From the IMG/VR virus record IMGVR_UViG_3300047375_000738: a stretch of DNA of 64,000 nt. The stretch is one strand, 5' to 3'. Below, one piece after another: positions 14,415 to 38,738 of the stretch. Below the pieces are notes generated by a model. It was not told where the DNA came from. It did no database searches and saw nothing but the letters and a program-made list of their open reading frames with translations. Numbering within the stretch: position 1 is the first letter of the stretch; every line of letters starts with the position of its first letter. The translations under genes and the position numbers were made by a program. The DNA comes from a virus. Its lineage: Duplodnaviria; Caudoviricetes.

Positions 14415-15308
14415 CTAAGTTCCCCAGGCATTTCCGAATAAGCTGATATGGAGTCTTGGGGTAAATCGCCATCCTTCTGCCATACACGCTTCAGCCACGT
14501 CTTTAACGTTGAGGGTGTATTCTTCACTGCGTCCGCCCATTGGCATAAGATATACCGGACATTCCACCCCGGCACTTCTGTAAGCGTCCACAGCTCTTTT
14601 AACTTCTTCAAAGTCGTCTTCAGTAGCCACAACAAACTTAAGATAAAGTTCGCTATCAGTAACGCACTGATACTCACTAGCAACATCAGGCTTGATAGCA
14701 GTTTCCCAAGGTTCTCCTGAGACACTAAGTTTTGGGGAACAACTCCAAGTGACTGTAAGTCTGTCGCTGTTGTTGAGATAGTTGTAGAGATCGTCGTGTA
14801 AATGTTGTGTAGTGTTTGTTTCAAATGTGATGTTCCTTAAATCCTGCATACGTGGATGTTCAAACAGCTCTACGTAAAGCCGTTGCCACGCTAACAACGG
14901 TTCACCGCCTGTCATGATCAAGTGTACATCTTGACCATTGTCCTGTACCCACTTACCATTAGGAGTAAGTGAAAGTAAATGCTCAACTACTTCGTCCACA
15001 GTTGCTTGTCGATTAAAGTGTTTAAACTCTGGATAGATACTTGCATATGTATCGCAACCTGTGTGTATAATAGGCAAGTCTGTAAATTCTTTAGTTGTTT
15101 CATGTACACCTGCGTCAAGTAATCCTTGTACTTCGGCATTGTGAATAATGCCTGCTTTTTGTTTTACATCACGCATTGGCTCGTTCTTTAAGCCAAAGTT
15201 CATACAACGAAAGTTACAACCGAAGGTGCGTAGGAATACACTGGGTACTCCTACAAACTTGCCTTCGCCTTGTACGCTATAAAAAGCTTCTGAATATCTA
15301 AGTTTCAT
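14415..15308 (-). CDS. queE: 7-carboxy-7-deazaguanine synthase (radical SAM)
   Basis: YSEAFYSVQGEG, FLRTFGCNFRC...GCDT, TGGEPL, FETN, SPKL, YLMP, TPRLH; start set at the TAATG overlap with folE. Confidence 0.9.
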   Translation of the reverse strand: MKLRYSEAFYSVQGEGKFVGVPSVFLRTFGCNFRCMNFGLKNEPMRDVKQKAGIIHNAEVQGLLDAGVHETTKEFTDLPIIHTGCDTYASIYPEFKHFNRQATVDEVVEHLLSLTPNGKWVQDNGQDVHLIMTGGEPLLAWQRLYVELFEHPRMQDLRNITFETNTTQHLHDDLYNYLNNSDRLTVTWSCSPKLSVSGEPWETAIKPDVASEYQCVTDSELYLKFVVATEDDFEEVKRAVDAYRSAGVECPVYLMPMGGRSEEYTLNVKDVAEACMAEGWRFTPRLHISLFGNAWGT

Positions 15309-15991
15309 TAGCAACTAAACTCCTGTTGTAGTTTAATGTTATCAAAGAACTCTTTCTTTGTACCTGCATCATCTTTAAATGCGCCACGTAGTACTGTAGT
15401 TTGTGTTAAACTACTATGTGCCATAATACCGCGATTCTCACAACAACCGTGTGTTGCTTGAATATAAACACCTAAATGTTCTGCACCAGTTGCGGCTTGG
15501 ATCTCACGTGCAATATCATTTGCAAGTTCTTCCTGTAGTGTGCCACGACGTGAACACCATTGTGCAATACGTGTGTACTTGCTTAGACCAATTAACTTAT
15601 CAGCGGCAATAATACCAATGTATGCAATACCTGCTACTGGCTGGTGATGATGCGAACACATACTTTTAAGTTCACTGCGTACTACTAACATACCTTCATA
15701 GCGATCATCGCTATCATTAGGAAATGCTGTTGCACTTGGCGCTGGATCATAACGTCCTGCCATAATTTCATTAAAGTACATTTTAGCAAGACGTCTTGCT
15801 GTGCCTTGTGAGTTAGGATCGTTATGACGATCAATCAATAGTGCATCTAGTACACCTTCAAATGCTGTAGTAGCATTATCAATAAGTTCTTCTTTATCAC
15901 CATTTTGTAATACTTGTGAAATATTGTCGCCTGCCCAGTGACGAATGCCTAGTTCATCTAGGCGGGCTTTTAGTTGTTCTGCTTTGCTCAT
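15308..15991 (-). CDS. folE: GTP cyclohydrolase I
   Basis: TARRLAKMY, SMCSHHHQP, GLSKYTRI, QEEL, HGCCENRG. Confidence 0.95.
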   Translation of the reverse strand: MSKAEQLKARLDELGIRHWAGDNISQVLQNGDKEELIDNATTAFEGVLDALLIDRHNDPNSQGTARRLAKMYFNEIMAGRYDPAPSATAFPNDSDDRYEGMLVVRSELKSMCSHHHQPVAGIAYIGIIAADKLIGLSKYTRIAQWCSRRGTLQEELANDIAREIQAATGAEHLGVYIQATHGCCENRGIMAHSSLTQTTVLRGAFKDDAGTKKEFFDNIKLQQEFSC

Positions 15992-16256: not shown

Positions 16257-16491
16257 TGTTTTCTCCTTTTAATGCTTTTATAGTTTGTTGTTTCTCTCTG
16301 TCTCTTACAAAGAGATCTTCACCAGCATACGTACTACATTTATCTAATGCATCTTCGATATGCCATAGTAACTCATACAAGTCTTTTTTACAACCCCAAG
16401 TAACAAATCCGTCCATTCGAGGATCGCTTTCAGCAAAACTAATTTTGTTTACGCCTTGTTTTAGGTCACTTAGACTCCAGTCAACTATCAT
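16249..16491 (-). CDS. Hypothetical protein
   Basis: Start reassigned to the ATGA overlap with the PRTase stop (MIVDWSL...). Confidence 0.7.
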   Translation of the reverse strand: MIVDWSLSDLKQGVNKISFAESDPRMDGFVTWGCKKDLYELLWHIEDALDKCSTYAGEDLFVRDREKQQTIKALKGENNA

Positions 16492-17006
16492 TCGTCGTAT
16501 TCCCAAGGAAACACAATCCAAGTATCTTCTTCGCTAGTGTCAATTTCTTTCCAATAATAATCAACACCGTCAAATTTTGTATGTGTCTTTTCACACATGG
16601 TAGCAAAGCGAACATTGTCATTCCAAACATCATTCCAGCCTTCGCTATTGGGCAAGCAACCGCTTTGCCAATCTTCTCTAATCCATTTGAACGTAGCACC
16701 TGTATCGTTAATGTCATCTACAATTAGTATTTGCTTTCGCATTTTAGGTTTGCATTGTCCATCGTGATATCCAAAAGCATCTTCGGCCATCCAGCAGTTT
16801 GATTCTTGTGTAGCATTGTCACGCAAACGCACATCTAGCGCATAATGATTACAGTTGAGCAGATGACTAAGCATTACACTAATTGGTAATCCACCTCTAT
16901 TCAATCCAACAATATAATCGGGCTTCCAGCCATCTTTATACATTTTTAACGCAATATTAGTTGCAGCCGTATTAACGTCTTGCCAACTATAGTATGTTTT
17001 TACCAT
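16488..17006 (-). CDS. Type I phosphoribosyltransferase, xanthine/guanine PRTase (Gpt)-like
   Basis: IVGLNRGGLP, PRPP-binding ILIVDDINDTGATF, WIVFPWE. Confidence 0.85.
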   Translation of the reverse strand: MVKTYYSWQDVNTAATNIALKMYKDGWKPDYIVGLNRGGLPISVMLSHLLNCNHYALDVRLRDNATQESNCWMAEDAFGYHDGQCKPKMRKQILIVDDINDTGATFKWIREDWQSGCLPNSEGWNDVWNDNVRFATMCEKTHTKFDGVDYYWKEIDTSEEDTWIVFPWEYDE

Positions 17007-21968: not shown

Positions 21969-22305
21969 TTTCTTGGTGATTTCCTTTATAGTCTTGCTCT
22001 ACCATTTTGTAAATTGTTTTAAAATTTTCGTATGCTTTTTCTAAAGCTGGGTAATATCCAACCATGTTATGTATTTTATCAATGCTAGGCATTGTATCTA
22101 CAAACTCAGTTTGTTCCCAGGTAATATTGTCAGCCCAATGTGTATCTTCGAGTGTGATAGTACTTGTTGTATCGATTGTAATAGTATCAATGCTGCTAGT
22201 ATCGATACTACTTATAGTAATGTCTGACACATCAAATGTTAAATCCTCGTCAATACTAGTATCAATTGTGATTGTGTCTTCTAAGTTCCAGTTCGTACTG
22301 GTCAT
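21949..22305 (-). CDS. Hypothetical protein with D/T/I-rich low-complexity N-terminus
   Basis: Repeated TITIDTS-like units. Confidence 0.7.
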   Translation of the reverse strand: MTSTNWNLEDTITIDTSIDEDLTFDVSDITISSIDTSSIDTITIDTTSTITLEDTHWADNITWEQTEFVDTMPSIDKIHNMVGYYPALEKAYENFKTIYKMVEQDYKGNHQENDETPF

Positions 22306-23137
22306 TGCACATTTCCTCTATTGTTTTTGTAAGTGTAACATGCTCGCTAAGAGTATCTACAACACTGCTCACAGCATCTCCTTCTCTACGAGGTGCTTCT
22401 ATAATATTTAATTGTTTACCAGTTACTTTTTGCATAGTGTCAATAACTTCTCTAACACTATATCCTACATTACTGCCTAAACATTCATATGGCGTATTTG
22501 CGGGGCCTCGTTCCACGGCTGTGACAATGGCGCCAGCCAAATCAACAACGTGAATATAATCACGAATGCAAGTGCCATCCCTAGTATCATAGTCCGTACC
22601 AAAGATCTTAAGGTCTGGTATCTTTTCACTAGCCACCATAGCAGCGACACGAATAAGATGGGTAGGAGCACCCAATTGACGATGAACACCGTCAGTACCA
22701 GATACGTTAAAAAATCTAAAGATGGTGTATCCATCTGCTTTCTCCTTAATTACATCTTCTGCTGCCACTTTACTGCGAGCATAAGGTGATGCCATTTCCC
22801 ACGCACTACTTGTACTAGCAAAAATTACATGTGGTGTTGTTGTCATTGATAGTAAGTTTGCTGTACCGCCTACATTTACTCTATAATACTCTGCTGGTTC
22901 TTTTAAACTATCAGGCACTACACTGCGTCCTGCAAGGTGTACAATAGCATCGTAGACGCCACCGGCATATTGACCAGTAACGTCTACGTTATAATACTCG
23001 TCACAGAATTCCTTAACATCATTAGTTTCGCCGTGGATTTCTGTATCCCAACCTATAACTTTATGACCTTTTTCTTTAAGTAATTTGCATACATGGCTAC
23101 CAATGTAACCGCTTGCACCTGTAACTAATACTTTCAT
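22262..23137 (-). CDS. galE: UDP-glucose 4-epimerase-like extended SDR
   Basis: VTGASGYIGS, HLAG, YARSK, RFFNVSG, GTCIRDYIHVVDLA. Confidence 0.85.
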   Translation of the reverse strand: MKVLVTGASGYIGSHVCKLLKEKGHKVIGWDTEIHGETNDVKEFCDEYYNVDVTGQYAGGVYDAIVHLAGRSVVPDSLKEPAEYYRVNVGGTANLLSMTTTPHVIFASTSSAWEMASPYARSKVAAEDVIKEKADGYTIFRFFNVSGTDGVHRQLGAPTHLIRVAAMVASEKIPDLKIFGTDYDTRDGTCIRDYIHVVDLAGAIVTAVERGPANTPYECLGSNVGYSVREVIDTMQKVTGKQLNIIEAPRREGDAVSSVVDTLSEHVTLTKTIEEMCNDQYELELRRHNHN

Positions 23138-23737
23138 TTATTGCTCTCGCAACTTTCCGGATAATGCTTTTAATAGCAATCCATATGCTGGTAAGAAGAT
23201 AATCAAACCTACTGCAATCTTTAGTACAGTTTGTGATCCTGCAATCTCCATCCAGTTTGCTGCCATATACTCGTCTGCTGAGTTGTTAAACGCAACAAAG
23301 AAGAATGTGTAACTATCAATTACGTTTGCAACTACAGTTGACAACGCTGGTGCTAACCACCATGCACGATACTTTTCACGCAAGTATTGGAATACATATA
23401 CGTCTAGCATTGTACCAACTGCATATGCTGTAGCACTTGCAAAGCCAATACGTAGTGCAACACTCTGCGGTGCACCTTCTAGCAATACTACTGCAATACT
23501 ACCAATGATAGCAAGCGGATAGGCTGCTGCGATAGTTGCTCGTGCAATATTCTTACCTAGCATACGCACAGTAAGATCGGTTGCAAGAACAACAATCGGG
23601 AATGTAAATGCAGCCCAGGTTAGTTTTACTCCAAAAAATTCAACTGGAATACTAACTAAAGCATTACTTACTACAACGACGATAACATGCAACAGCGCAA
23701 GTTTAATCATCATACTTTTATCAATATCTTTAAACAA
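23138..23737 (-). CDS. yhhQ: preQ0/preQ1 (queuosine precursor) transporter, VUT/YhhQ family
   Basis: Multi-TM; SNALV, TWAAFTFP, ATDLTVR, LDVYVF, WWLAPALST, WMEIA, FLPAYG match YhhQ as recalled. Confidence 0.9.
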   Translation of the reverse strand: MFKDIDKSMMIKLALLHVIVVVVSNALVSIPVEFFGVKLTWAAFTFPIVVLATDLTVRMLGKNIARATIAAAYPLAIIGSIAVVLLEGAPQSVALRIGFASATAYAVGTMLDVYVFQYLREKYRAWWLAPALSTVVANVIDSYTFFFVAFNNSADEYMAANWMEIAGSQTVLKIAVGLIIFLPAYGLLLKALSGKLREQ

Positions 23738-23754: not shown

Positions 23755-24921
23755 CTAATACTTGTTAACCGCTACATGATCTCTATAACGATTATCATCT
23801 CGCTTCCATTGTTCTCCGTTACCTTGCATAATATCAATGTAACGATCAATAGTAGCACTTGTCCAGTCACTAATTTTTCCCATATCTTTGTGTGGGCCTT
23901 CTAGTAACTTGTCAAGTTTGTTTCCTGCATCTTCAACACTCCAAGGTATATACATACGCTCATGACAGTTGGAAAAGATTTCAGGGAAACTTCTATAAGC
24001 AGGAAATAATACATTACAACCTAATGCATCAGCTTCGCTTACAGTATTACTTGTCCAGTCTTGTAAAGCACAGTTAAACAATACTTTACTATCGTTGACA
24101 ATATGGTAATATTCTTCTTTTTTAAGATTTTCATAAATCCTTAGTACACCTTTGCTTACTAAGTCGTTTGCACGTTCAATATACTTAGGATTATTACTAC
24201 GTAAAGGACCGCCTTGTAGTACAGCAAACTCAACATTTGTGTCTGCATACTTCTCAGCAAGATCCATATAAAAATCAGGTTGTTTTTCTTGATCCCAACG
24301 TGCTGCAAACACAACACGGTTGCTACGTGACTCCCAAAACGTTGGTGCTTCGCCGGATCGTTGTACAACTTCTCTTTTGTCAAAGGCTAATCCACTAATA
24401 TTGTAGAGCGGCGCCTTCCAATTAGCTACTTTCATATTAGCAATCATTTCTTCATTACTTGCTAATACTCCTGTAACAAATTCGTTGCACATTTCTTCGT
24501 ACAAACTCATCCATTTACCCATACCCCATACATGAACAAAGTCATCTGGGTCTACAGCTTGTGCAAGGCATCTAATAAACACCTTTGGCTGTTGGGTTGC
24601 TGGAATTTGATCCATAATGTACGGCAATGACTCCATACCAGGCTGAAACATATCTTCAAAGAAAATAACGTCTTCAGCTGTTACTTCGCCGTTGCGCATC
24701 ATTTGCACCAAGTTCATCATCTGCGACATAGCAAAGTAACTACGTCCGTGTGCATCAAGAACTTGTCCAACACTAATAGATTTAGTGTCATCAATTGTTG
24801 TACCAGGTACAACTACATAGTCAATACCACGTCTTTTGAAAGCACGTTCACTCCAGTCTTGCAACTGGAGTGTATAACGTCCTTCATATGGCTCTAAGCC
24901 CATATAAAATAGTTTACGCAT
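23755..24921 (-). CDS. GT-B fold glycosyltransferase (family 1/4-like)
   Basis: FAARWDQEKQPDF, ALQDWTSNTVSEA, LFPAYRSFPE donor-binding region. Confidence 0.8.
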   Translation of the reverse strand: MRKLFYMGLEPYEGRYTLQLQDWSERAFKRRGIDYVVVPGTTIDDTKSISVGQVLDAHGRSYFAMSQMMNLVQMMRNGEVTAEDVIFFEDMFQPGMESLPYIMDQIPATQQPKVFIRCLAQAVDPDDFVHVWGMGKWMSLYEEMCNEFVTGVLASNEEMIANMKVANWKAPLYNISGLAFDKREVVQRSGEAPTFWESRSNRVVFAARWDQEKQPDFYMDLAEKYADTNVEFAVLQGGPLRSNNPKYIERANDLVSKGVLRIYENLKKEEYYHIVNDSKVLFNCALQDWTSNTVSEADALGCNVLFPAYRSFPEIFSNCHERMYIPWSVEDAGNKLDKLLEGPHKDMGKISDWTSATIDRYIDIMQGNGEQWKRDDNRYRDHVAVNKY

Positions 24922-25134: not shown

Positions 25135-25560
25135 TTATGCTGGGTAAACAATTTGACAGCCGTTTTCGCCATCTTCGGCAACATCAATAACAACAAACCG
25201 GCTGGGGTATTTGTTGTTGATGTGTAGATACAAATCATCCGCAATCATTTCGCATGACTTGTAATCTAGTTCGAGAATATCTTCTTTATAAAGATTCTCT
25301 AACCAACGTTTGAATTGAATAAATTCAATGTCTCTATCGTTGTGTGTTACTTGAATTTGTACTTTAAAGTGAAACGTATGTCGATGTGGGTATCCTAAGA
25401 AACTTACATCGTATTCGTCACCTGTTGCCAGCGCAGGATCGTCGAGTGCTGCTGGATATTTGTGAATACCTTCTTTAGTAAAGGTTACCCAAATACTACG
25501 TTTTGCGTTTTCTAGTGCGTTTGCCATTTTAGCGTCCTCTTCTCTCATGCGCCGTTGCAT
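25135..25560 (-). CDS. queD: QueD-like 6-carboxytetrahydropterin synthase (T-fold)
   Basis: HRHTFHF Zn ligands, IEF, SCEMIA, V.V.EDGENG; start set at the leaderless ATG 25560. Confidence 0.75.
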   Translation of the reverse strand: MQRRMREEDAKMANALENAKRSIWVTFTKEGIHKYPAALDDPALATGDEYDVSFLGYPHRHTFHFKVQIQVTHNDRDIEFIQFKRWLENLYKEDILELDYKSCEMIADDLYLHINNKYPSRFVVIDVAEDGENGCQIVYPA

Positions 25561-25566
25561 ATATGT

Positions 25567-25595
25567 ATAATAACGTTCTTGTTGCATATTGTCAA
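25567..25595 (-). promoter_or_regulatory. sigma70-type promoter TTGACA-N17-TATTAT, leaderless
   Basis: In-frame ATG at 25560 lies 6 nt after the -10 box. Confidence 0.8.
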
Positions 25596-26119
25596 GTGAT
25601 AATTGTGTCTGTAGTGTATTTAGACCAGTCTGTAAAAACAGCCTTCTCTTTTAAATCATGTAGTCTATGAACCCATACACCAGGGTTACTTGCATCAAAG
25701 TCTTTATCGTCAATTTTTAAACAAGCATTATATCCAAGTTGATCGATATACGGAAGTTTTACGCTAATCATTGGAATAAAGCGGTTGTGTTCTGTGAATC
25801 CACTTTCTAGCAACCCTTCAATTTGGCTTGCATCAGCATCTAGTGTGACCCAATAGCCTTCTTTCAATAATGGAAATATCATAGCTTCCCAAGGTTTCCA
25901 TTCGCTTTCTGTATTGCTAGTGACATTGAAACTCATATTAGCACCACAGTAGATATGTTTACATCCTTGCATTTCAGCCATGGCTATTACTTCGTCTGGA
26001 TCCATGGCACCTACAACGAATAGTGTTTTCTTTCCAAACTGTGGTGTATGTTCAACTTCTGTTCCAACAAAATATTGAACACTTTCGATATCGGTTCCTT
26101 GATCGTAAACTCTTTTCAT
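25592..26119 (-). CDS. Hypothetical protein inside the deazaguanine cluster
   Basis: 175 aa; EVEHTP, HIYCGAN, WVH motifs. Confidence 0.85.
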   Translation of the reverse strand: MKRVYDQGTDIESVQYFVGTEVEHTPQFGKKTLFVVGAMDPDEVIAMAEMQGCKHIYCGANMSFNVTSNTESEWKPWEAMIFPLLKEGYWVTLDADASQIEGLLESGFTEHNRFIPMISVKLPYIDQLGYNACLKIDDKDFDASNPGVWVHRLHDLKEKAVFTDWSKYTTDTIIT

Positions 26120-26289
26120 GATTTCCTCGTTTTATATTGTTCTTGCCAAAGATCCCAACGTTTTTTATAGTATTCGTTGATTTCTTTTTTAGGGTAGTTT
26201 TTTTCTTCCATGTTAGCAATGATAGTTTCGATATCTTCTAGTGCCATTTCAATTGTTTCTAAACGAACTTTTTTCTCATTTGGATCCAT
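26116..26289 (-). CDS. Small hypothetical protein (57 aa, not in ORF track)
   Basis: MDPNEKKVRL...KTRKS; ATGA overlap with the next gene; fills the gap. Confidence 0.7.
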   Translation of the reverse strand: MDPNEKKVRLETIEMALEDIETIIANMEEKNYPKKEINEYYKKRWDLWQEQYKTRKS

Positions 26290-26488
26290 TTACTCCATTC
26301 TCCATTGCATTTATTTTATTCTGTATTCGATATAGTTCGTCCTTGTAGAACAACTTTTGTGTTTTTAAAGTTCTTACTTCTTGATCTACATAAAGTCTTT
26401 TTTCTAGTTCTATAATTTTTTCGTCTAATGCTCTATGTTTTTTTGTAAGCTCTGCTAGATATGCAGTTAATCCTTCGAGACTTGTCAT
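26276..26488 (-). CDS. YdcH/DUF465-like coiled-coil protein
   Basis: L..KHRALDEKI...LKTQKLFYKDEL pattern. Confidence 0.6.
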   Translation of the reverse strand: MTSLEGLTAYLAELTKKHRALDEKIIELEKRLYVDQEVRTLKTQKLFYKDELYRIQNKINAMENGVNGSK

Positions 26489-28038
26489 TTATACTCCCAT
26501 AATTCGTTAAATTTAGTTTGTGCATTAACAGCCTTCTTGCCAATATTTAGACGTGTTCCGATTACGTGCATCCAATAGCGATCAAAGTCTTCAATAAGTT
26601 TTAAACTTTTTTCTCGATCTTTTAAGCTAAAGATTTCGTCTACTATTTCTTTAAACTTAACTACACCATACTTTTGGAAGTCAGTATCGTTAATTAGCAT
26701 GTACGGAAACTTGCCATTGTCGTATTCTCTGTTTGCACGTTGTGTACTTTCGATGTGCATCCAGACATTATGGCCCATTTGTAGTGCATAGCTAAAGCTA
26801 TCCCAACTGGTGCTATCTTTTTTACGCACAGTAGTATTACCATCAGCATCTAGTAGAGGATTGCCTTCTTTATCTAAGTCAACATCACCTGCTTTTACTT
26901 TTATAGTACCGACTTTGTTTTTATCACCTTCTGCATAGATACAGATATCATTCATCTTGCAATGTTTGCTAATAGGAGAGTCTTCAAATGCATCTAGTAT
27001 GTTGTCAGTTATAACTGCATCACTAAACTTGCGTTTATCTGTAGCATACTTCAATGAATCGGCACCCGGAGCCATCATGTAACTCCATTTGCCACGATCT
27101 TCGATGCGGATACTGTGATAAATCTGTCCGTTTGCTGTAGCAAGAAACGGAGATGCACAGTCGTATGTAATCATAAAGTTTTTGTTATGATATTTACGTA
27201 CTGCACGTTGAATGTCTGTAAGTAATACAGCCCATTCTAACTTACTAGTACCCAGGAAGTGCATTACATCATGCAATCCTTCTTCTAGCAAGCCATCGTG
27301 TATCATATGCACAAGGCGCCTTAAGATAAGATGCACATCACACATGTTTTGTCCGCCCATTGCCCACCCGTTAAAGTGTGTGTCTGGGTATTTTGCTGGA
27401 TCACAATAGTCCTTAAACTCTTCGTACCAACTATCAGCATCAGTATGAGTACTGCCTTGTAATACGTTGAGTACTTTAAAGTTACCACGTCTATTATCCA
27501 TGTAATAACGTGCATTAATATGTGTTGCATCAACAGCATCTTGATAGCTATGAATATTTGCTGCATCTGCTGCTTTTTTGTCTTGGAATGTCCATGTTGG
27601 AATATCGAGCATCATGCCGTAATCCATATATTCTTCCATCCAGTTTACAACTAGCTCACGTTTCTTTGCAGCCAGTGGACAATCTGGATTAGTCCAATCA
27701 CCTGGCCATAAGCCTTTAGCAATCTGGAAGCCTCCGGAGTCTCCAAGTAACCATGAATTCTCTCTATCACGCTTACGTAGCATATCTTCTTTTTCACTGA
27801 ACTTATTAGTGTCAAGCTCGGCATGTCCTGCAGAATAGAGCGCCCATTTGTAGTGGAACGCTCCTTCTTTTGAATTCAAAAAGTTCATACTTTCCATTTT
27901 GTCGATACCAACTGGAATTCTAGCTGGCTCGACATACTCTTGGAAACGTTGTTTGCCTATAAAAGTAGCATAGAAGCCACTAATGCTAGGCAAAAATACT
28001 GCATAGTCCTTCTGTGCTTCTGTGAGATCTGTATTCAT
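26485..28038 (-). CDS. TGT/DpdA-like 7-deazaguanine transglycosylase
   Basis: LGDSGGFQ, MMLDIP, VLQG, GWAMGG, HFLG, YDCASP, HNV appear in the order of TGT catalytic motifs. Confidence 0.8.
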   Translation of the reverse strand: MNTDLTEAQKDYAVFLPSISGFYATFIGKQRFQEYVEPARIPVGIDKMESMNFLNSKEGAFHYKWALYSAGHAELDTNKFSEKEDMLRKRDRENSWLLGDSGGFQIAKGLWPGDWTNPDCPLAAKKRELVVNWMEEYMDYGMMLDIPTWTFQDKKAADAANIHSYQDAVDATHINARYYMDNRRGNFKVLNVLQGSTHTDADSWYEEFKDYCDPAKYPDTHFNGWAMGGQNMCDVHLILRRLVHMIHDGLLEEGLHDVMHFLGTSKLEWAVLLTDIQRAVRKYHNKNFMITYDCASPFLATANGQIYHSIRIEDRGKWSYMMAPGADSLKYATDKRKFSDAVITDNILDAFEDSPISKHCKMNDICIYAEGDKNKVGTIKVKAGDVDLDKEGNPLLDADGNTTVRKKDSTSWDSFSYALQMGHNVWMHIESTQRANREYDNGKFPYMLINDTDFQKYGVVKFKEIVDEIFSLKDREKSLKLIEDFDRYWMHVIGTRLNIGKKAVNAQTKFNELWEYK

Positions 28039-28041
28039 GTA

Positions 28042-28770
28042 TTACTTCTGTTGTGCTGGGAGGATATAATCGTATGTTGCCATGCCACTGTCTACGCTAA
28101 TTTTCATTGCGCCTTGATCTGTGATACTAAGAGTTTTATCACCATCTAAGTTTAAAATAGCAATAGTTTGTGCAACTGGCCACGCCCAAGTATGCGTTAA
28201 TGAACCGCTGATTCCGTGTTCAAATGTAAACGAACCTGCGTGTGTAGCTTCGTCTCCAAAGTAAAAGTTTAGATTGCCATCTTCTGTTTTAACTTGGAAT
28301 ACATTTTCTTCACTATGAGCACCAGACATAAGTTTCATACGTGCAATTGATGCCATTGTAGGTTGGATTTCGACATCCCAGCTATTACCTTTGAACTTAA
28401 CACTTTTTAGTTTTTCTTCAATAATTGCTTTGTTCATAAAGCGATAATCATTCTTAAAATCACCAGTTGTGTTTTCAAAGTGAATGTGTGTTGGGATAGT
28501 TTCGCCGTTGCGATCATCTTCAACAACCGCAATGTTAGCATTTTCTTTGTACTCTGGATTGTTCAAGTGATAAGCAAGTTTGCCTAAGTCTGGCATACCA
28601 AATGTACCAGCAAATTCGCTTACTGGATTGTGCGTTTCCGCTGTCATGATAACACTACGATCGTCTGCCATTGTTTCGATCTGTGTATCTTTTTCAGCTG
28701 TAACTTTTAGTGTTGTGATAAAGCCTAATTTGTGTGTATGGCTTACGATATCTTGTAAAATGTCGTGCAT
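28042..28770 (-). CDS. Probable sliding clamp (gp45/PCNA-like)
   Basis: 242 aa, alternating beta/alpha pattern, own early promoter, C-terminal TYDYILP; family not verified. Confidence 0.55.
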   Translation of the reverse strand: MHDILQDIVSHTHKLGFITTLKVTAEKDTQIETMADDRSVIMTAETHNPVSEFAGTFGMPDLGKLAYHLNNPEYKENANIAVVEDDRNGETIPTHIHFENTTGDFKNDYRFMNKAIIEEKLKSVKFKGNSWDVEIQPTMASIARMKLMSGAHSEENVFQVKTEDGNLNFYFGDEATHAGSFTFEHGISGSLTHTWAWPVAQTIAILNLDGDKTLSITDQGAMKISVDSGMATYDYILPAQQK

Positions 28771-28790: not shown

Positions 28791-28819
28791 ATTGTACTGC
28801 ATATTTGGTATAAAGTCAA
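28791..28819 (-). promoter_or_regulatory. sigma70-type promoter TTGACT-N17-TACAAT
   Basis: Upstream of the clamp-like gene, followed by AGGAG. Confidence 0.8.
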
Positions 28820-29748
28820 CCAAATAAACTACTAACTGATTCTTCGTTTGTGACACGTCTAATAGCTTCGCCAAATAGTTGACTTACACTTACGTATCGG
28901 GTCTTTTTGCAATTCTTTGGACAGCGATTGTTAATACTGTCTGTTACTACTAGTTCTTCTAGTACACTCTTCTCAACTTTTTGACATGCTTCTCCGCTTA
29001 GTACTCCGTGTGTGATATATGCTCTAACACTTAGAGCACCGGCATCCATAATTGCTTTGGCTGCATTGCACAATGTACCACCTGAGTCGATAATGTCATC
29101 AACCAGAATGGCGTGTTTACCAGTAACATCGCCGATCAAGTTCATGACTTCGCTCTTACCCGCTTCAGGACGCATCTTATCTACAATAGCAATGTCTGCG
29201 TGGAACATATCAGCAAACTTTCTAGCACGAACAACTCCGCCTGCATCCGGCGATACAAATACTGTACCTTGTTCTGTTCCTACATTGCGTTTAATATCTT
29301 TGGCAAACACCAATCGGCTTGTTAAATCGTCTACTGGAATATCAAAGAAGCCCTGTATCTGTCCTGCGTGTAAATCCATTGTAAGTATTCTATCTGCACC
29401 TGCTGTTGCTAGTAGGTTAGCAACTAGTTTTGCTGTAATAGGTGTACGTGAAGCACTCTTACGGTCTTGTCTTGCATAACCAAAGTAAGGAATAACTGCT
29501 GTGATCCGTCTAGCACTTGATCTCTGTGCAGCATCGATCATAATCAATAGTTCCATTAGGCTATCATTTACAGGAGTACATGTACTTTGTACTATAAAAA
29601 CATCTTCGCCACGTATGTTATCATGAAACTCTACAGTTGTTTCGCCATCGGCAAATGTATCAATTTTAGATGGAACTAACGCTGCAAAACAATGCTCTGC
29701 AATTTCTTCTGCTAGAGCCATATTAGCGTTTCCGGCAATTATTTTCAC
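28816..29748 (-). CDS. prs: Ribose-phosphate pyrophosphokinase
   Basis: [52 protein letters not shown]. Confidence 0.97.
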
Positions 29749-31741: not shown

Positions 31742-32301
31742 TGTAAATGCTCCTTTATTAATTTGTAATCTTTTGCGTAATATTCCTTAATATCATTAAC
31801 AAGACTTTCATCCATTGCTTCTATTATTCTATTTTGAATTTCTCTCTTCTTGGTTTCTTTAGTAGAATTAATTTTAGGCAATGGTCGTATTTGTGGAAAT
31901 AGCTTAAATTTATGTTTTAATAATATATCTAAACCTCCATCATCCATATTATAAAAGTATAATTTTCCATAAGCTGGTAAAAATTTGTATTGCGGAACTG
32001 TGTGTTCGTCAAACTCAATTTTTTTTAAAATTTCTAAAAATTTTATTACAGGATATTTTTTTCTTTGTTGAAATTCAAGAACTCCGCTAATCCAACGCTC
32101 GACTGGGTCTCTTAACACAACATGAAAAAATTTTGGTTTTACAAGATGTAATTCATTTCCAACATAAAACCAATTTCGTTCTAGGCCATAGTTAGCTACC
32201 AAGCTCGAAGCATTTTTTGGTATGCGTACAATAACATTATCTTTGTCAACTGACACACAAAGACCATAAGGATGTTTATATAAATCCAATCTTAATCCCA
32301 T
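31738..32301 (-). CDS. Sulfotransferase family protein
   Basis: IPKNASS (5'-PSB loop), LRDPVERWIS (3'-PB), H..PQ, Y.KDY. Confidence 0.75.
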   Translation of the reverse strand: MGLRLDLYKHPYGLCVSVDKDNVIVRIPKNASSLVANYGLERNWFYVGNELHLVKPKFFHVVLRDPVERWISGVLEFQQRKKYPVIKFLEILKKIEFDEHTVPQYKFLPAYGKLYFYNMDDGGLDILLKHKFKLFPQIRPLPKINSTKETKKREIQNRIIEAMDESLVNDIKEYYAKDYKLIKEHLH

Positions 32302-34973
32302 TCAAATAAAGTGTTAAATGTTGTTTTTTGTTTTGTGCTTTCTAAGTCATAGTTAAGCACACCAATAAGGTTGCCTAGTTTATTATCAATAATAACCTCT
32401 TCCATTGCATCTCCATCAAACGGCAGTTCCTTGAACCATTCTGGAATACGCAATTCATCTGTAGGATATGCAACACTTGTATAACCTAGTGGATTTTGCT
32501 TTAGTTTGCAAACAATAACTTTCATACCATCTACAATCTCTTGCGAATACTTGTCTCCATTCATACGCTTCAATGTATTCCAGTTAAGACTTGCTCTTAC
32601 ATGCCCTGGCATGTTTGCTTTGCCTTGCTTTTCTTCTAAGCGTCTGTAGTGTCCAATCTTGTTTGCACGTTTTGGTGCGCCTTTTTCCCACCCGGGCATT
32701 TCTTTAAACTCTTTACGGAATTCACTAATAGCATCAAGTAGTTCTTTTTCAGGCTTTTTATCTAGTACCATATCGAGCAAATCTTTTAAGAAGTCCTGCA
32801 TGAAAACTGGAGTATCACTGCGCTTCAAGTCCAAGCCCATTGCTTTTACTTTGCCTCTTTTGCCGTCGCTGTCACTTCTAAAGCCTTCGATGTCATACAC
32901 TAGTGCTGCATAACGTTTCTTAGTAATAAACAATCCTGTTTCTGCAACAATCTCTCTTGCTGCTGCAATAACATCGCTACGTGATCTTGGACAGTGAAAT
33001 GCATCTAACATAAACTGCGGAAATGTAGTGTTTGCCTGTTCGCATACTTGATCATACAGTGTAATTACATTGTCTTTATCCCAAGGAATGTTGCCTTTGT
33101 CAATATCATCTTTTAGTACAGGATATGCACTAAAATAACAAGAGTCAGTATCGCCATATATCATTGCTTTACCAACATGGTCATATTCGCCTGTAATAAC
33201 TTTGTTTACTTCGGCACTCATATGCTTAACAATAGTTCTGCCGCTTAGTGTAGTTGATTGTCCAATACGTTTATCAAAGAATCTACAGCCTGGATTAAGA
33301 ATAGCACCATACAAACTGTTCAAGTTAATCTTCTTAACCAACTGTCGCTTGTCCCAGTATTCGATCTCTGCATCATTTTTTGCATCTTTGGCTTTTTTAA
33401 GCATTGCTTGCAGTTCTTTACGTTCGCTATACCAACGTTTTAGCAATCCGGGAATAACACCTTCAATTTCTGTTGTAAAAACAGTACCATTTGAACTAAG
33501 CATCCAAGGTTGATTGCTATCAAAAATAAGTTTCCATATTTCGGCACCACTTAATACATGCTCTGTTCCGTCTTCTAGTTCAAGTGTAAGAGGCACATCT
33601 TTACGCTGTTCCATTACAGCATCATATTCTAATGTAGCAAACTTGCCTTCCCAAGCACCTGCAAAACTTTTCTTTTCAAGTGTAGTTGCGTTGTGCAAAA
33701 ACTCTTCTGTAAGATCTAAACGTATCTGTCCTATAATAGTTTCTGGTGCCATATTCATTGCACGAATAATACTTGGATACAGACTGTTCAAATCCATCGA
33801 ACCGATCCACTCGTGTACGCCTTTTTTTGGAAACGCAACGTATGCACCTGCTGCCGCTGTATTGCCTTCGTGGTTCTTTCTGTTTGGTACTTGTAGCCCA
33901 CGTCTGTGTGCTTCGTTAACAATTGCTTGCTCTGTAACTGCAACTGCTCCTGCTGTTGTTTGTAGTAGCACAGTGTTATCATGCGCAATTTCATTAGCAA
34001 GATCAATAAAACGTAGTTTCTTGTCTAGTTTGTCTAGTAGTGCAACGTCCTGTCTGTTGTATTCAATAAAACGTTCGAAGTCGTTGTTGTATAACTGATC
34101 AAGTGTGCCTTCATATACAGTCTTGTTCTCGCCTACTTCCATTTCACCAATAGCATCTAGTCTATATGTGTGACGTTCTTCATATGTGTACTTGCGATAC
34201 AAGTTAAGATAGTCCATATGTACTCTTCCAATAGTATCATACGTTTCGCTTGTCTTACCAAACTTTTCATATTCTCTACGCTTGGGCTTTTGTCCCCACA
34301 GACAGAATCGACGTGTGTCATCACTGCTTAAAATACGTTTAATTCTATTTACAGTATAAGGAACATCATATCCTTCACTGTTCCATCCACTGTGAATATC
34401 TGCGTCTTCGATAAGATCTAAGAACGTTGATAACATCTGTTGCTCGCCTGCTTCGCTGTTTGGAAATAGTAAGCAACTTTCACCCCAACGTTGTTTACAC
34501 ATTGCTTCTGCTTCTTCCATCGGCAAGCCTTTGGGCGGCATAGCAACTGTTACTAGCATATCTAGCCATTGTAGGTGTACAGTAATAGCAGTAATAGGCA
34601 TAAACGGATCTTCAACTGGAGCAAAGCCACGCTCTGGATCAAAGTCTGTCTCAATATCCCAAAACACTACGTTTAGTTTAGGCGCATCTTGATTAAGATA
34701 GTTTTCACTTAAACACTGGAAGATTGGATTCACATCACTTTCAAACATTGTCTTGCCTTTGTTAATAGCAAGTTCTTTTCGAAAGTCTTTTGTACTCTTG
34801 CACACAACTCTAGTTAGTGGATCGCCATAAATGCTTTTGTATTTGCCTCGCGGGTCTTCGTAATACCAAGTATACTTTGACTGATATTCATGGAAATGTC
34901 TCTTTCCATCTTTGCGCTCAACGACACGAATAATATCACTATCTCTATCAAAAAATGCATCTACGTATGCCAT
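32292..34973 (-). CDS. Family B DNA polymerase (T4 gp43-like)
   Basis: Exo WDIETD, NSEGYD, YNRQD; Pol DLNSLYPS, KINLNSLYG, YGDTDS, KKRY. Confidence 0.97.
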   Translation of the reverse strand: MAYVDAFFDRDSDIIRVVERKDGKRHFHEYQSKYTWYYEDPRGKYKSIYGDPLTRVVCKSTKDFRKELAINKGKTMFESDVNPIFQCLSENYLNQDAPKLNVVFWDIETDFDPERGFAPVEDPFMPITAITVHLQWLDMLVTVAMPPKGLPMEEAEAMCKQRWGESCLLFPNSEAGEQQMLSTFLDLIEDADIHSGWNSEGYDVPYTVNRIKRILSSDDTRRFCLWGQKPKRREYEKFGKTSETYDTIGRVHMDYLNLYRKYTYEERHTYRLDAIGEMEVGENKTVYEGTLDQLYNNDFERFIEYNRQDVALLDKLDKKLRFIDLANEIAHDNTVLLQTTAGAVAVTEQAIVNEAHRRGLQVPNRKNHEGNTAAAGAYVAFPKKGVHEWIGSMDLNSLYPSIIRAMNMAPETIIGQIRLDLTEEFLHNATTLEKKSFAGAWEGKFATLEYDAVMEQRKDVPLTLELEDGTEHVLSGAEIWKLIFDSNQPWMLSSNGTVFTTEIEGVIPGLLKRWYSERKELQAMLKKAKDAKNDAEIEYWDKRQLVKKINLNSLYGAILNPGCRFFDKRIGQSTTLSGRTIVKHMSAEVNKVITGEYDHVGKAMIYGDTDSCYFSAYPVLKDDIDKGNIPWDKDNVITLYDQVCEQANTTFPQFMLDAFHCPRSRSDVIAAAREIVAETGLFITKKRYAALVYDIEGFRSDSDGKRGKVKAMGLDLKRSDTPVFMQDFLKDLLDMVLDKKPEKELLDAISEFRKEFKEMPGWEKGAPKRANKIGHYRRLEEKQGKANMPGHVRASLNWNTLKRMNGDKYSQEIVDGMKVIVCKLKQNPLGYTSVAYPTDELRIPEWFKELPFDGDAMEEVIIDNKLGNLIGVLNYDLESTKQKTTFNTLFEWD

Positions 34974-34994: not shown

Positions 34995-35023
34995 ATAGTA
35001 ACATATTTAGGCAATGTTGTCAA
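34995..35023 (-). promoter_or_regulatory. sigma70-type promoter TTGACA-N17-TACTAT
   Basis: Upstream of the polymerase gene. Confidence 0.85.
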
Positions 35024-36035
35024 CAAACGATTTAGCATAAAGTATGTCATGTCTAAGTTTTTTTGCTCTAGTTAAAAATTGGTAACTTTCGTTATATAAT
35101 ATACTAGGTAATTCCATATTTTTCATTTTCTTTATATGCACCTTTTGATTATGTTTTGCTGTTTTTTCTAATGTATTGTGTAATGCTGTACTGTTATTTA
35201 GATCTTTTACTTGATTTACAATTGAATCTATACGTTGCTCGATAGTATTGTGTGCGTCAAAACTATAATCAAATACATCATGGTGTAATTTATAGCCTTC
35301 ATCTTCTAAGTGTTTGTGCATGTTTTTACATGTTACAAGTAAAAAAGGCTGTGCTTGAAACAAACAACTGTAAGTTTTTTCACTTAACAATGTAGTATCT
35401 ACAACAGGTATATCGTAGTAACTTTCAGTAACTAAATTAAAAGCACTTTTGTTCCATACATCAAGCGGTGGTGGCGGGTTATCAAAATAGTCGTAAACTA
35501 ATACTGGGTCGTGTTTAGCATAATCAAACCATTTTACAATTTTTCCTTCCCAGTTTCTATGCAGCGGCTTATTTTTTACGCTTTCTAAGTATCTTTTATG
35601 TAAGCTATCGTCATCGTCACCTACTGCTATTTGACTGTAACTTACGTAGCCAGTTTCTAGTAGTTGGTTGTCGTATAATTTATCCAGTAAATAGTCTCGA
35701 TGATATCCAAGCGATTGTTGTTGACAACAAAATAGTCTATCAATACTTTTATTATAGTTTGTAGGCTGTATACCAGTAAGTCGCATGTATCCCGGGAACT
35801 CGTAGTGCATTGGTTCTTTAGTAGTGTACGGATCCATATGAGTACAGTGCCACTTTAGTTTTCCTTGCTTAACAAAACGTGTAAATCTCTTGTCTCGAAC
35901 GTAGTCAATTATCCAGTTTGAGTCGTAACCTTCTTCCATATAGTAAAACAAATGTAGTTCGTCAACTATATCGCATATTTCCGCCAAGTTTGCTTCGGGC
36001 TGTTGATCGTTAGTAAATCCTACAACAACTGCCAT
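35007..36035 (-). CDS. Putative glycosyltransferase-like protein (paralog family A)
   Basis: FNLVTESYY...LLSEKTY...QPF...FDYSFD; function unverified. Confidence 0.55.
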   Translation of the reverse strand: MAVVVGFTNDQQPEANLAEICDIVDELHLFYYMEEGYDSNWIIDYVRDKRFTRFVKQGKLKWHCTHMDPYTTKEPMHYEFPGYMRLTGIQPTNYNKSIDRLFCCQQQSLGYHRDYLLDKLYDNQLLETGYVSYSQIAVGDDDDSLHKRYLESVKNKPLHRNWEGKIVKWFDYAKHDPVLVYDYFDNPPPPLDVWNKSAFNLVTESYYDIPVVDTTLLSEKTYSCLFQAQPFLLVTCKNMHKHLEDEGYKLHHDVFDYSFDAHNTIEQRIDSIVNQVKDLNNSTALHNTLEKTAKHNQKVHIKKMKNMELPSILYNESYQFLTRAKKLRHDILYAKSFVDNIA

Positions 36036-37030
36036 TACATATTGTCCGCATATTTTTTTATTTTTAATATTTTTTCTTTATGTCGTTGTGCTTCTGGGCA
36101 GAACACGTAATCTTCACTAGTTAAAATACTAGGTAATTGTAATCTTTTTACCTTGTCTAAGAATATAGTTTGATTATACTTAGCAGTTTCTATAGTTGAT
36201 TTAAACATGTTTATTTTCAGGTTTTTTATTTGTTTTACTATTGCTTCAGTTCGTGCTTCTATAGTTGGTAATTTATCAAAAGAATAATCAAATACATCTG
36301 TATATAATTTATATCCTTCGTCTTCTATTTTTTTATGTATGTTTTGGCATCCTACAATAATAAAAGGTTGGGCATGTAGTAAACAACTGTATGTTTTTTC
36401 TGTAAGTAAACTAGTATCTTTTGCCTCAATATCATAATAACTTTCTGTAATAATATTAAAACAAGACTTGTACCATGTGCTAATAGGCGGCGGTGGGTTA
36501 TCTTCTATATTCCATATTAAACTGTCATCATGACTATCACTAGGAAACCATTTGTGAATGTTATTGTGCCAGGATTTATTAAATTTAAATTTTTGTGAAT
36601 CTTTTATGTATTTAATTGTTAAATGGTCTTCATTAGGTCCTGAGTCTTCTGCATAACTTACAAGACCTTTTGATAATAGTCTTTGTCTATACAAAAGATT
36701 CATTAACAAATCTCGATGATAACCTAATGACTTTTGTTGACTAAAATACAAGTGTGTAGGTGATTGTCTTTGTTGTACTAATGGTTGGATACTAAGTAGC
36801 ATATCAAATTCAGGCCAAGTTATGTGATAATCCTTTGTGCCGACATATGGATCTGAATGATTGCAATGCCAAAAATATTTACAATTATTATCTGTTATTG
36901 CACCCTGTAAATCTTTAATATTACGACCTTCTTCTGAATAGTATAAAAAGTGCTGTTCTGTAGGAGCATAGATCTGTTTTAAGTCAGACTCAATGACTCC
37001 ATCTTTGTCAGCACCATATACTACTTTCAT
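36035..37030 (-). CDS. Putative glycosyltransferase-like protein (paralog family A)
   Basis: FNIITESYY...LLTEKTY...QPF...FDYSFD; tandem paralog of the previous gene. Confidence 0.55.
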   Translation of the reverse strand: MKVVYGADKDGVIESDLKQIYAPTEQHFLYYSEEGRNIKDLQGAITDNNCKYFWHCNHSDPYVGTKDYHITWPEFDMLLSIQPLVQQRQSPTHLYFSQQKSLGYHRDLLMNLLYRQRLLSKGLVSYAEDSGPNEDHLTIKYIKDSQKFKFNKSWHNNIHKWFPSDSHDDSLIWNIEDNPPPPISTWYKSCFNIITESYYDIEAKDTSLLTEKTYSCLLHAQPFIIVGCQNIHKKIEDEGYKLYTDVFDYSFDKLPTIEARTEAIVKQIKNLKINMFKSTIETAKYNQTIFLDKVKRLQLPSILTSEDYVFCPEAQRHKEKILKIKKYADNM

Positions 37031-37530
37031 CTATCAAAAGCAGTAACTTGCATTGTAAAACGATGTTCAATTCCCATATTGTATGCAGCATGTGGCGCAC
37101 TACCTGTCCAGCTAATCCAGTCGCCATTTTTCCAATCACACAAGCATGTATCTTCTACGTGGAAATAATGACCTAGTTTGCAATCTTCTAAAAATACAAT
37201 ATAACGTGTAATAGTGTTTACATCTGTAATATTATGCATCTTCATAAAGTTTGCATACATATCTTTGTGTAAAGGAAGAATGTTAGCAGGCGGCGTTCTG
37301 TAAATTGCAACCTCAAAGTGATCGTGGTCTGGTAGCTGCTCAACTACACCTTTCCAAAATTCAGGCATAATGTCTTTAGGACCTACATATACATCATTAT
37401 TGATAATAACTTTATAAGGATCGTGTCCATATTTGATATATTCATCGCCTCCATAGCCTCCTGCACTTTCGTATGGTAAACTATAAAATTGTTGTCCTTG
37501 CCAACATGGTTCAATATGTCCTTGTTTCAT
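37027..37530 (-). CDS. Cupin / Fe(II)-2OG oxygenase-like protein
   Basis: LPLHKDMY (HxD) ... APHAAYN; resembles 20422-21036. Confidence 0.65.
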   Translation of the reverse strand: MKQGHIEPCWQGQQFYSLPYESAGGYGGDEYIKYGHDPYKVIINNDVYVGPKDIMPEFWKGVVEQLPDHDHFEVAIYRTPPANILPLHKDMYANFMKMHNITDVNTITRYIVFLEDCKLGHYFHVEDTCLCDWKNGDWISWTGSAPHAAYNMGIEHRFTMQVTAFDR

Positions 37531-37544
37531 GTATTTTTCCTTTA

Positions 37545-38444: not shown

Positions 38445-38447
38445 TTA

Positions 38448-38714
38448 TTATGCGTCACTGTCATACCCAGTTGTTGCAACAATAGTTTCGAGGTCTTCAA
38501 ACTCGTCTTGTACACGACTCCAGTCACGTTTTTGTGCTACTTTGATTGCTTTATTAATAAGAGAAGGTTTTACATTTAGTTCTTCTGCTACTGCTTTTAC
38601 GGTTTCTTTTAGTCCACCTTGTAGATCTTCAATTTCTTGTAGAACAGTTACACCTTCTTTAACTAGACGTTCTAGTTTGGCTTTTTCTTCTTGACCGTAT
38701 ACTCTGTCGCTCAT
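38448..38714 (-). CDS. Small DNA-binding protein, T4 DsbA/GapR-like
   Basis: 88 aa helical; L.E....I.DL...LKE...EELNVKP.LINKAI pattern. Confidence 0.5.
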   Translation of the reverse strand: MSDRVYGQEEKAKLERLVKEGVTVLQEIEDLQGGLKETVKAVAEELNVKPSLINKAIKVAQKRDWSRVQDEFEDLETIVATTGYDSDA

Positions 38715-38738
38715 ATATTTCTCCTATGTGTTTCTTAT

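What the first reader, a model, noticed from the sequence alone, without database searches (positions are those of the whole stretch)
26485..28038. Oversized TGT/DpdA-like enzyme lacking the classical Zn site
Seen: 517 aa with TGT motifs in order, no CxCxxC Zn motif, and a charged insert (GDKNKVGTIKVKAG...RKKD) before the HNV helix. It lies directly downstream of the clamp-like gene. Inference: a divergent DNA-acting subfamily, possibly tied to the replisome. A tRNA target cannot be excluded.
Basis: partly seen in the sequence, partly recalled or inferred. Interest (0 to 1): 0.6.

Follow-up and report, generated by a model that had tools for sequence, protein, structure and literature searches.

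The report
Clamp-docking phage DNA deazaguanine transglycosylase
A marine jumbo phage encodes an enzyme of the kind that swaps guanine in DNA for a protective 7-deazaguanine base, and its tail ends in the same short peptide as the phage DNA polymerase and is predicted to dock on the sliding clamp, so the modification is probably done right behind the replication fork.

Summary
The ORF is real: minus strand, 517 aa, TGT fold, three invariant catalytic aspartates, no CxCxxC. It is the orthologue of an untested Pseudomonas phage PA5oct protein that Cui et al. 2023 tabulate as DpdA3. It sits in a FolE/QueE/DpdL cluster of a marine jumbo phage, so DNA is the likely target, not tRNA. The replisome link holds up. 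The upstream gene has a sliding-clamp fold, and the enzyme ends in the same F-x-x-L-[FW] peptide as the polymerase (37/58 and 58/61 proteins; background 0/857). That peptide docks in the clamp's peptide pocket in a model (score 0.74, best control 0.00). The protein belongs to a long clade distinct from the short DpdA3s that were chemically tested, so full guanine replacement cannot be assumed. A glycosyltransferase accompanies DpdL in nearly all relatives, hinting at an undescribed base. I found no paper on the clamp link, but this scan noted both the tail and the glycosyltransferase earlier on other genomes. No activity is shown.

The parts
26485..28038 (-). TGT-fold 7-deazaguanine transglycosylase, long (PA5oct-type) clade, 517 aa; D100 acid/base, D145 base recognition, D293 nucleophile by analogy with DpdA/TGT
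   Evidence: catalytic roles from PMC10164549, inferred for this protein
26497..26523 (-). C-terminal clamp-docking peptide, residues 506-514 (F510, L513, W514), at the end of a low-confidence linker (496-506)
26812..26928 (-). Optional surface insert, residues 371-409; net charge 0; mostly absent in 29/51 close homologues
28042..28770 (-). Sliding clamp (PCNA/gp45 fold), 242 aa, stop 3 nt before the transglycosylase start
   Evidence: upstream in 79/79 close loci
32292..34973 (-). Family B DNA polymerase, 893 aa, ending in the same F-N-x-L-F peptide
26276..26488 (-). DUF465 small coiled-coil protein overlapping the transglycosylase stop codon; role unknown, not universal
25592..26119 (-). Conserved 175-aa protein of no known family; constant neighbour, also next to DpdA2 in phage ACP17
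25135..25587 (-). DpdL (QueD paralogue, predicted CDG decarboxylase); carries the LxxxHRHxF signature
   Evidence: 55% to PA5oct DpdL, 32% to phiST DpdL
23755..24921 (-). GT-B glycosyltransferase (weak PF00534), constant partner of DpdL in this clade and in DpdA2+DpdL phages
23138..23737 (-). YhhQ-family queuosine-precursor transporter; sporadic (2/79 close loci)
22262..23137 (-). GalE-like NDP-sugar epimerase, candidate sugar-donor supply
16488..17006 (-). Gpt-like purine phosphoribosyltransferase, usually close to folE
15308..15991 (-). FolE GTP cyclohydrolase I
14415..15314 (-). QueE CDG synthase (radical SAM)
   Evidence: (E 1e-41 to Ahp1 QueE, 4e-29 to PA5oct QueE)
28816..29748 (-). PRPP synthetase; sporadic insertion upstream of the clamp (5/79 loci)

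Best explanation
It is the phage's DNA 7-deazaguanine transglycosylase, and it rides the phage sliding clamp. FolE, a QueD (encoded elsewhere or by the host) and QueE make the base CDG; DpdL is predicted to decarboxylate it to 7-deazaguanine. The enzyme hooks onto the clamp with its C-terminal F-x-x-L-W peptide on a flexible linker, flips out guanines in newly made DNA, forms a covalent intermediate through D293 with D100 as acid/base, and inserts the deaza base. The neighbouring PRTase probably salvages the released guanine to GMP, which limits back-exchange and feeds FolE. The glycosyltransferase may decorate the inserted base. The purpose is protection from restriction. SHOWN here: fold, invariant aspartates, gene context, shared peptide, clamp fold. 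MODELLED: peptide-clamp docking. INFERRED: DNA as substrate, chemistry, identity of the base, extent of replacement (probably partial), roles of PRTase and glycosyltransferase. Odds by step: inserts a deazaguanine into phage DNA about 0.85; binds the clamp about 0.75.
For: Orthologue QCG76197.1 of PA5oct (35% identity, E 4e-68) is listed as a DpdA with DpdL, FolE, QueD, QueE (Cui 2023 Data S1). PA5oct DNA resists five restriction enzymes in a way read as modified G (PMC12191111). By profile the clade matches DpdA2, which includes the validated DNA enzyme of phage nt-1 (probability 97.5, E 7e-12), better than a single E. coli TGT sequence (74); Foldseek on viral models ranks nt-1 DpdA2 at 2e-9. 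DpdL, glycosyltransferase and the 175-aa gene follow it in 51/51 close loci and 46-47/47 more distant ones, with no QueC. Strict tail motif in the last 12 residues: transglycosylase 37/58, polymerase 58/61, other ORFs 0/857. With a looser pattern 48/58 have it; the other 10 have a decayed copy and a new terminal L-W or F-W peptide. Best tail match to the own polymerase motif averages 17.5 against 9.8 for shuffled tails. Complex model: ipSAE 0.74, best of 3 controls 0.00; that mark was reached by 58 of 80 solved complexes and 2 of 110 mismatched pairs; runs agree in at least 75% of contacts; partner pLDDT at least 54. Contacts are clamp residues 37-41, 122-128, 219-221, 237-242 with tail residues 502-517, the region where PCNA-type clamps bind peptides (own knowledge).
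Against: No member of the long clade has been assayed; Cui et al. could not reconstitute DpdA3 or DpdL in E. coli. The complex pass may come from likeness to solved clamp-peptide structures such as 6drt, and the job was unlike the calibration. In many relatives the motif is about 30 residues from the end or degenerate (30/63 strict), and distant members often lack it. In phage Phosso the gene lies about 175 kb from the clamp gene. Tail co-variation with the polymerase (0/500 permutations) is confounded by shared ancestry. QueD was found in only 1 of 5 related contigs searched.
Confidence: 0.66

Rival explanations
1. A free, clamp-independent DNA transglycosylase. Adjacency to the clamp gene reflects shared timing of expression in a replication module, and the tail is a non-essential or vestigial peptide.
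For: Several DpdAs work in E. coli without any phage clamp (VH7D and nt-1 DpdA2). The whole gene order from polymerase to QueE is conserved, so adjacency alone says little. The motif is degenerate in about half of the more distant relatives.
Against: A peptide found on only two of 83 minus-strand ORFs of the window in strict form, kept or re-created at the terminus in relatives, and mirrored pair by pair in Vibrio phage 2.275.O, is hard to explain without selection. The model places it in the peptide pocket.
Confidence: 0.15
2. Pre-replicative route: the PRTase joins the deaza base to PRPP, host or phage kinases and reductase make the triphosphate, and the polymerase builds it in. The TGT-fold protein then acts on nucleotides or only cleans up residual guanines at the fork.
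For: A PRTase lies in or near the cluster here (22/29 close loci with enough sequence), in PA5oct, in immuto 2-6A and in BUCT-ZZ01, and elsewhere in the phiST genome. A PRPP synthetase is adjacent in this window. A modified-dGTP route was proposed for Campylobacter phages.
Against: PA5oct DNA is reported as blocked for five of ten enzymes although all ten listed sites contain G, which points to partial substitution (inferred from the text, gel not seen). No nucleotide kinase lies near the gene, unlike the short DpdA3s. A PRTase was not detected in Phosso, 2.275.O, CP220 or ACP17. A nucleotide enzyme has no need for a clamp peptide.
Confidence: 0.1
3. A tRNA-guanine transglycosylase that remodels host or phage tRNA.
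For: The best solved-structure matches are tRNA enzymes (Z 18.5 and 17.1 against 15.8 for DpdA). The tree cannot reject a sister position to E. coli TGT (AU p 0.48). A YhhQ transporter is present.
Against: Identity to those structures is 10-15%; no bacterial or archaeal TGT model of NCBIfam or Pfam hits; no PUA domain; no QueC/QueF to make preQ0 or preQ1; no tRNA gene in the window; found only in phage-type contigs; tail shared with the DNA polymerase.
Confidence: 0.04
4. A reader or glycosylase of TGT fold, like CBASS Cap10, that recognises deazaguanine or removes guanine from foreign DNA and does not insert a base.
For: Cap10 (9ntn) is among the structural matches, Z 14.1, so the fold has been reused before.
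Against: All three catalytic aspartates are invariant in 122/122, and the gene travels with a base-synthesis pathway that has no other insertion enzyme in view.
Confidence: 0.04

Closest known systems
PA5oct QCG76197.1, tabulated as DpdA3 in Cui et al. 2023 (PMC10516641, Data S1)
   Same: Orthologue (35% over 85% of the length); same order polymerase, clamp, enzyme, with glycosyltransferase, DpdL, PRTase and QueE close by; no CxCxxC; F-N-S-L-F peptide near the end
   Different: Never assayed; its motif is internal, followed by an acidic tail; the paper does not mention clamp, kinase or glycosyltransferase
Short DpdA3 of Cellulophaga phage phiST, Campylobacter phage CP220, Flavobacterium phage immuto 2-6A (complete G replacement)
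   Same: TGT barrel without Zn site; DpdL and PRTase in phiST
   Different: 258-264 aa, no HN helix, no clamp-type tail, next to nucleotide kinases; only weak similarity (profile probability 39); separate branch in trees
DpdA2 of Vibrio phages nt-1 and VH7D, and of ACP17, BUDD, BUCT-ZZ01
   Same: Closest experimentally validated DNA enzymes by profile and fold; no CxCxxC; ACP17, BUDD and ZZ01 also have DpdL, a glycosyltransferase and an L-x-x-[LF]-F-type terminus
   Different: Separate clade; no HN motif; 416-464 aa; nt-1 and VH7D insert preQ0 or preQ1 at low levels
Bacterial DpdA (Salmonella Montevideo, PDB 7ui4) and phage 9g DpdA1
   Same: Same fold and catalytic aspartates; 9g dpdA also abuts its clamp gene and ends in a Q-D-L-F peptide
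   Different: Bacterial DpdA has the CxCxxC-H Zn site and needs the ATPase DpdB; no detectable sequence similarity to 9g DpdA1
T4/RB69 and PCNA clamp clients (polymerase, ligase) with short hydrophobic clamp peptides
   Same: Short hydrophobic peptide on a flexible tail, shared with the polymerase; clamp matches gp45-ligase peptide complex 6drt at Z 16.9
   Different: The client is a base-exchange enzyme; my searches found no paper reporting that for any DpdA

Membership tests
TGT/DpdA superfamily | (beta/alpha)8 barrel of TGT type | tested here: met
   VIA Z 18.5 (rmsd 4.8, 296 aligned) to 1iq8; 15.8 (4.3, 299) to 7ui4; unrelated barrels at most 11.7
TGT/DpdA superfamily | Three catalytic aspartates in order | tested here: met
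   D100, D145, D293 invariant in 122/122; D145 and D293 align with the E. coli TGT aspartates
TGT/DpdA superfamily | Base-exchange activity | not testable with these tools
   needs an assay
Bacterial TGT (tRNA position 34) | CxCxxC...H zinc site | tested here: not met
   0/122 have it; only H423 and a lone C366 (72/122) remain
Bacterial TGT (tRNA position 34) | Hit to curated TGT models; groups with bacterial TGT | tested here: not met
   no Pfam or NCBIfam hit at E 0.1; own clade in trees, though the sister group is unresolved
Archaeal TGT (tRNA position 15) | C-terminal tRNA-binding domains including PUA | tested here: not met
   alignment to 1iq8 ends at residue 355 of 577; no PUA hit
Bacterial DpdA | Zinc site | tested here: not met
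   conserved in DpdA per PMC10164549; absent here
Bacterial DpdA | dpdB/dpdC partner genes | not tested
   no dedicated search; none apparent among the neighbours scanned
DpdA3 as tabulated by Cui et al. 2023 | Orthologue of a listed member, with DpdL, FolE, QueE | tested here: met
DpdA3 as tabulated by Cui et al. 2023 | One clade with the founding short members (phiST, CP220, immuto) | tested here: inconclusive
   profile probability 39 against 97.5 for DpdA2; separate branches, but AU p 0.54 does not reject a sister position
DpdA3 as tabulated by Cui et al. 2023 | Complete replacement of genomic G | not testable with these tools
   PA5oct restriction pattern suggests partial substitution
DpdA2 | Falls inside the DpdA2 clade | tested here: not met
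   DpdA2 is a closed clade, SH-aLRT 100
Sliding-clamp client | Clamp peptide shared with the cognate polymerase | tested here: met
Sliding-clamp client | Physical binding to the clamp | tested here: inconclusive
   model supports it (0.74 against control 0.00) but may pass by likeness to solved complexes; no measurement
DpdL (25135-25587) | QueD paralogue with LxxxHRHxF | tested here: met
   motif present, signature, 55% to PA5oct DpdL

The most novel reading that the evidence does not exclude
A distinct, abundant subfamily of Zn-free DNA transglycosylases rides the phage sliding clamp and inserts a CDG-derived base behind the fork, which the partner GT-B enzyme then glycosylates: an undescribed sugar-bearing 7-deazaguanine in DNA, detectable now in cultured phages (PA5oct, Paride, ACP17). 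It would also split 'DpdA3' into clamp-riding DNA enzymes and short kinase-linked enzymes that may act on nucleotides.
Probability: 0.3. Interest if true: 0.8.

Novelty: new variant of a known kind. Interest (0 to 1): 0.55.

Why it matters
How phage DpdAs find newly made DNA, and why some reach 100% guanine replacement while others stay far lower, is open; DpdA3 failed in E. coli reconstitution. A clamp requirement could explain such failures for this clade and gives a direct fix: co-express the phage clamp and loader. The family is very large in aquatic viromes (at least 7,804 clusters at 90% identity) and includes therapeutic Pseudomonas jumbo phages whose modified base is unidentified and is targeted by END nucleases. 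The data also suggest that the published DpdA3 label joins two different kinds of enzyme.

Tried and rejected
Pfam, NCBIfam, PHROGs and PDB sequence/profile searches gave nothing for the enzyme; whole-alignment family scans were over the size limit and not repeated. No whole genome is held, so QueD, QueC and kinases could not be sought in this phage beyond the window. QueC-family hits in related contigs were partial matches in ORFs that do not look like QueC. QueD was found in one related contig and not in a 93% complete one; it also shows up in a few loci. The idea that the insert is a DNA-binding or clamp-binding module was rejected (optional, net-neutral). Zn-site loss as a novelty was rejected (shared with the DpdA1, DpdA2 and DpdA3 sequences examined). 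A second, dedicated clamp paralogue beside the Phosso gene was rejected (no similarity). A universal PRTase route was rejected (not detected in 7 of 10 genomes by a loose search). Trees do not resolve relations between subfamilies; the careful search did not finish. The promoter scan was at chance level (14 against 13.5). The 175-aa neighbour stayed unassigned and was not folded. Scans with two distant homologues found no viral contigs, and their own contigs were short. RNA-library contigs cover the gene and bridge the clamp junction but cannot show a single transcript. No paper joining DpdA with a clamp, or deazaguanine with a glycosyltransferase, turned up; subscription journals are not covered.

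Full report
Observation. The finding is a 517-aa ORF on the minus strand at 26485-28038. It has no hit in Pfam, NCBIfam, PHROGs or PDB sequences, but an alignment of 122 homologues gives a confident model (pLDDT 94.6) whose best matches are all TGT-family proteins: archaeal TGT Z 18.5, QTRT2 17.9, bacterial TGT 17.1, DpdA 15.8, Cap10 14.1, then unrelated barrels at 11.7 or less (Foldseek agrees). D100, D145, H260 and D293 are invariant, H423 is kept in 106/122, and no homologue has CxCxxC.

What the stressed features are worth. Loss of the Zn motif is not special. The phage DpdA1 (9g), DpdA2 (nt-1, ACP17 and others) and short DpdA3 sequences I examined all lack it; bacterial DpdA and E. coli TGT keep it. 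The insert at 371-409 has eight basic and eight acidic residues, and 29 of 51 close homologues lack most of it. Neither feature defines function.

Context. The window is from a large tailed phage related to PA5oct. It has a family B polymerase, no tRNA gene, and its DNA occurs in seawater metagenomes and in six RNA libraries. In GTDB genomes the family appears only on eight contigs of metagenome-assembled genomes, and those with enough flanking sequence show the same phage gene order. Downstream lie DUF465, an unknown 175-aa gene, DpdL, a GT-B glycosyltransferase, YhhQ, GalE and, further on, a purine PRTase, FolE and QueE. DpdL, the glycosyltransferase and the 175-aa gene follow the enzyme in 51/51 close loci and 46-47/47 more distant loci; QueC was seen in none. 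QueD is not in the window but occurs in some relatives.

Relation to known families. The best named match is PA5oct QCG76197.1 (35%, E 4e-68), which Cui et al. 2023 list as DpdA3, with QCG76199.1 as DpdL. So the family is on record, untested. The label hides a split. The three phages in which full guanine replacement was measured (phiST, CP220, immuto 2-6A) encode 258-264-aa proteins that resemble each other but barely this one. By profile the long clade is closest to the GR11A-type phage proteins (probability 98.7) and DpdA2 (97.5), then a single E. coli TGT sequence (74), short DpdA3 (39) and 9g DpdA1 (under 1). Trees give the long clade SH-aLRT 97-99 but cannot name its sister; AU tests reject neither short DpdA3 (p 0.54) nor bacterial TGT (p 0.48). 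Full replacement therefore cannot be carried over. PA5oct DNA resists five of ten enzymes listed, read by the authors as a modified G in GA or GG context (PMC12191111), which fits partial, post-replicative exchange.

The clamp link. The upstream gene is a sliding clamp: Z 17.9 to PCNA, 16.9 to T4 gp45. It is upstream in 79/79 close loci, and the prototype 9g dpdA also abuts its clamp gene. Adjacency alone is weak, since the whole block is conserved and Phosso separates the two genes. The enzyme ends TKFNELWEYK and the polymerase TTFNTLFEWD. A strict motif in the last 12 residues occurs in 37/58 enzymes, 58/61 polymerases and 0/857 other ORFs. Ten relatives whose motif decayed have a new terminal L-W or F-W peptide after an acidic linker. 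Vibrio phage 2.275.O has matching variant endings on both proteins, and one lineage changed F to V/I in both; these may be single events, so co-evolution is not shown. A model of the clamp trimer with residues 482-517 scored 0.74 against a best control of 0.00 (mark reached by 58/80 solved and 2/110 mismatched pairs; contacts agree at least 75%; partner pLDDT at least 54), with F510, L513 and W514 against the interdomain loop and C-terminus of one subunit. It may pass by likeness to solved clamp-peptide complexes, so it supports binding without showing it. In more distant relatives the motif is often about 30 residues from the end or degenerate (30/63 strict against 6/649 background).

Mechanism. 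Most likely FolE, QueD and QueE make CDG and DpdL converts it to 7-deazaguanine (predicted by Cui et al., not demonstrated). The enzyme, held on the clamp, exchanges guanines in new DNA by the double displacement described for DpdA. The PRTase most simply salvages the ejected guanine (inference). The glycosyltransferase is beside DpdL in PA5oct, Phosso, ACP17, BUDD and BUCT-ZZ01, and was not detected beside the gene in DpdL-less 2.275.O or in the fetched regions of short-DpdA3 phages. That suggests a sugar-bearing base, but 7-deazaguanine offers no obvious acceptor, so DpdL may make something else or the transferase may act on another target. A tRNA substrate is unlikely: no curated TGT hit, no PUA domain, no preQ0/preQ1 pathway, and a tail shared with the DNA polymerase.

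Verdict. A real, correctly described gene of a known kind of system, already tabulated through its PA5oct orthologue. What is new relative to the papers I could search is the clamp-docking tail, the separation from short DpdA3, and the fixed glycosyltransferase partner. Earlier notes of this scan report the tail and the glycosyltransferase on other genomes; they are not independent evidence. All of it is testable in cultured phages. New variant of a known kind; interest 0.55.

Noticed in passing
L087:20601-21861, L088:29676-31036, L089:10582-12586, L091:8804-10254, L200:3839-5187, L201:3528-4795: Short DpdA3 genes (phiST, CP220, immuto 2-6A, Ahp1, BSP7, MA9V-3) sit next to, or two genes from, a P-loop nucleotide kinase and lack a clamp-type tail (the BSP7 hit is weak; RHph_I1_18 has a dUTPase there instead). 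This suggests base exchange on dGMP before replication, which would explain 100% replacement and runs against the published all-post-replicative proposal.
   Followed up: partly
L101:2006-3960, L092:2698-3972, L099:3968-5281, L100:4001-5251: 9g DpdA1 and the DpdA2 of ACP17, BUDD and BUCT-ZZ01 end in L-x-x-[LF]-F or Q-D-L-F peptides; 9g dpdA abuts its clamp gene. Clamp tethering may be widespread among partial-replacement phage DpdAs. nt-1 DpdA2 has no such ending.
   Followed up: partly
window:25592-26119: 175-aa protein with many invariant residues and no family match, present in every locus with enough sequence and beside DpdA2 in ACP17; a candidate missing enzyme of the pathway.
   Followed up: partly
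L004:7737-9326, L005:7578-9284: GR11A and PhiXhv-12 encode 529-568-aa relatives that keep CxCxxC and the HN helix, have a lysine-rich tail and lie beside a sigma factor gene; a further unnamed TGT-fold phage group.
   Followed up: partly
window:17191-21968: Between GalE and the PRTase lies an optional block: SAM synthetase, a radical SAM protein, and three ORFs without Pfam hits that look by eye like an amidinotransferase, a PLP enzyme and a cupin. Many relatives lack it, so it is not core to the deazaguanine system.
   Followed up: partly
window:29745-31741 and 35007-39363: UDP-glucose dehydrogenase-like, HAD-like and cytidylyltransferase-like genes lie between polymerase and clamp; two similar ~335-aa ORFs and further radical SAM/cupin-like ORFs lie upstream of the polymerase. 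A nucleotide-sugar toolkit that could serve virion or DNA glycosylation.
   Followed up: no
window:58826-59104 and 60029-60448: Two small ORFs that look by eye like MazG-type nucleotide pyrophosphatases; phiST has a MazG gene beside dpdL. Not scanned.
   Followed up: no
L112-L119: Phage contigs of this family are binned into eight metagenome-assembled GTDB genomes of archaea and bacteria; probably binning contamination, so no host can be read from them.
   Followed up: partly
L003:7908-13986: Vibrio phage 2.275.O has a long-clade enzyme with QueF, YhhQ and a QueC-like gene but no DpdL or matching glycosyltransferase in the fetched region, so the clade has probably switched base substrate at least once (preQ1 predicted).
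   Followed up: partly
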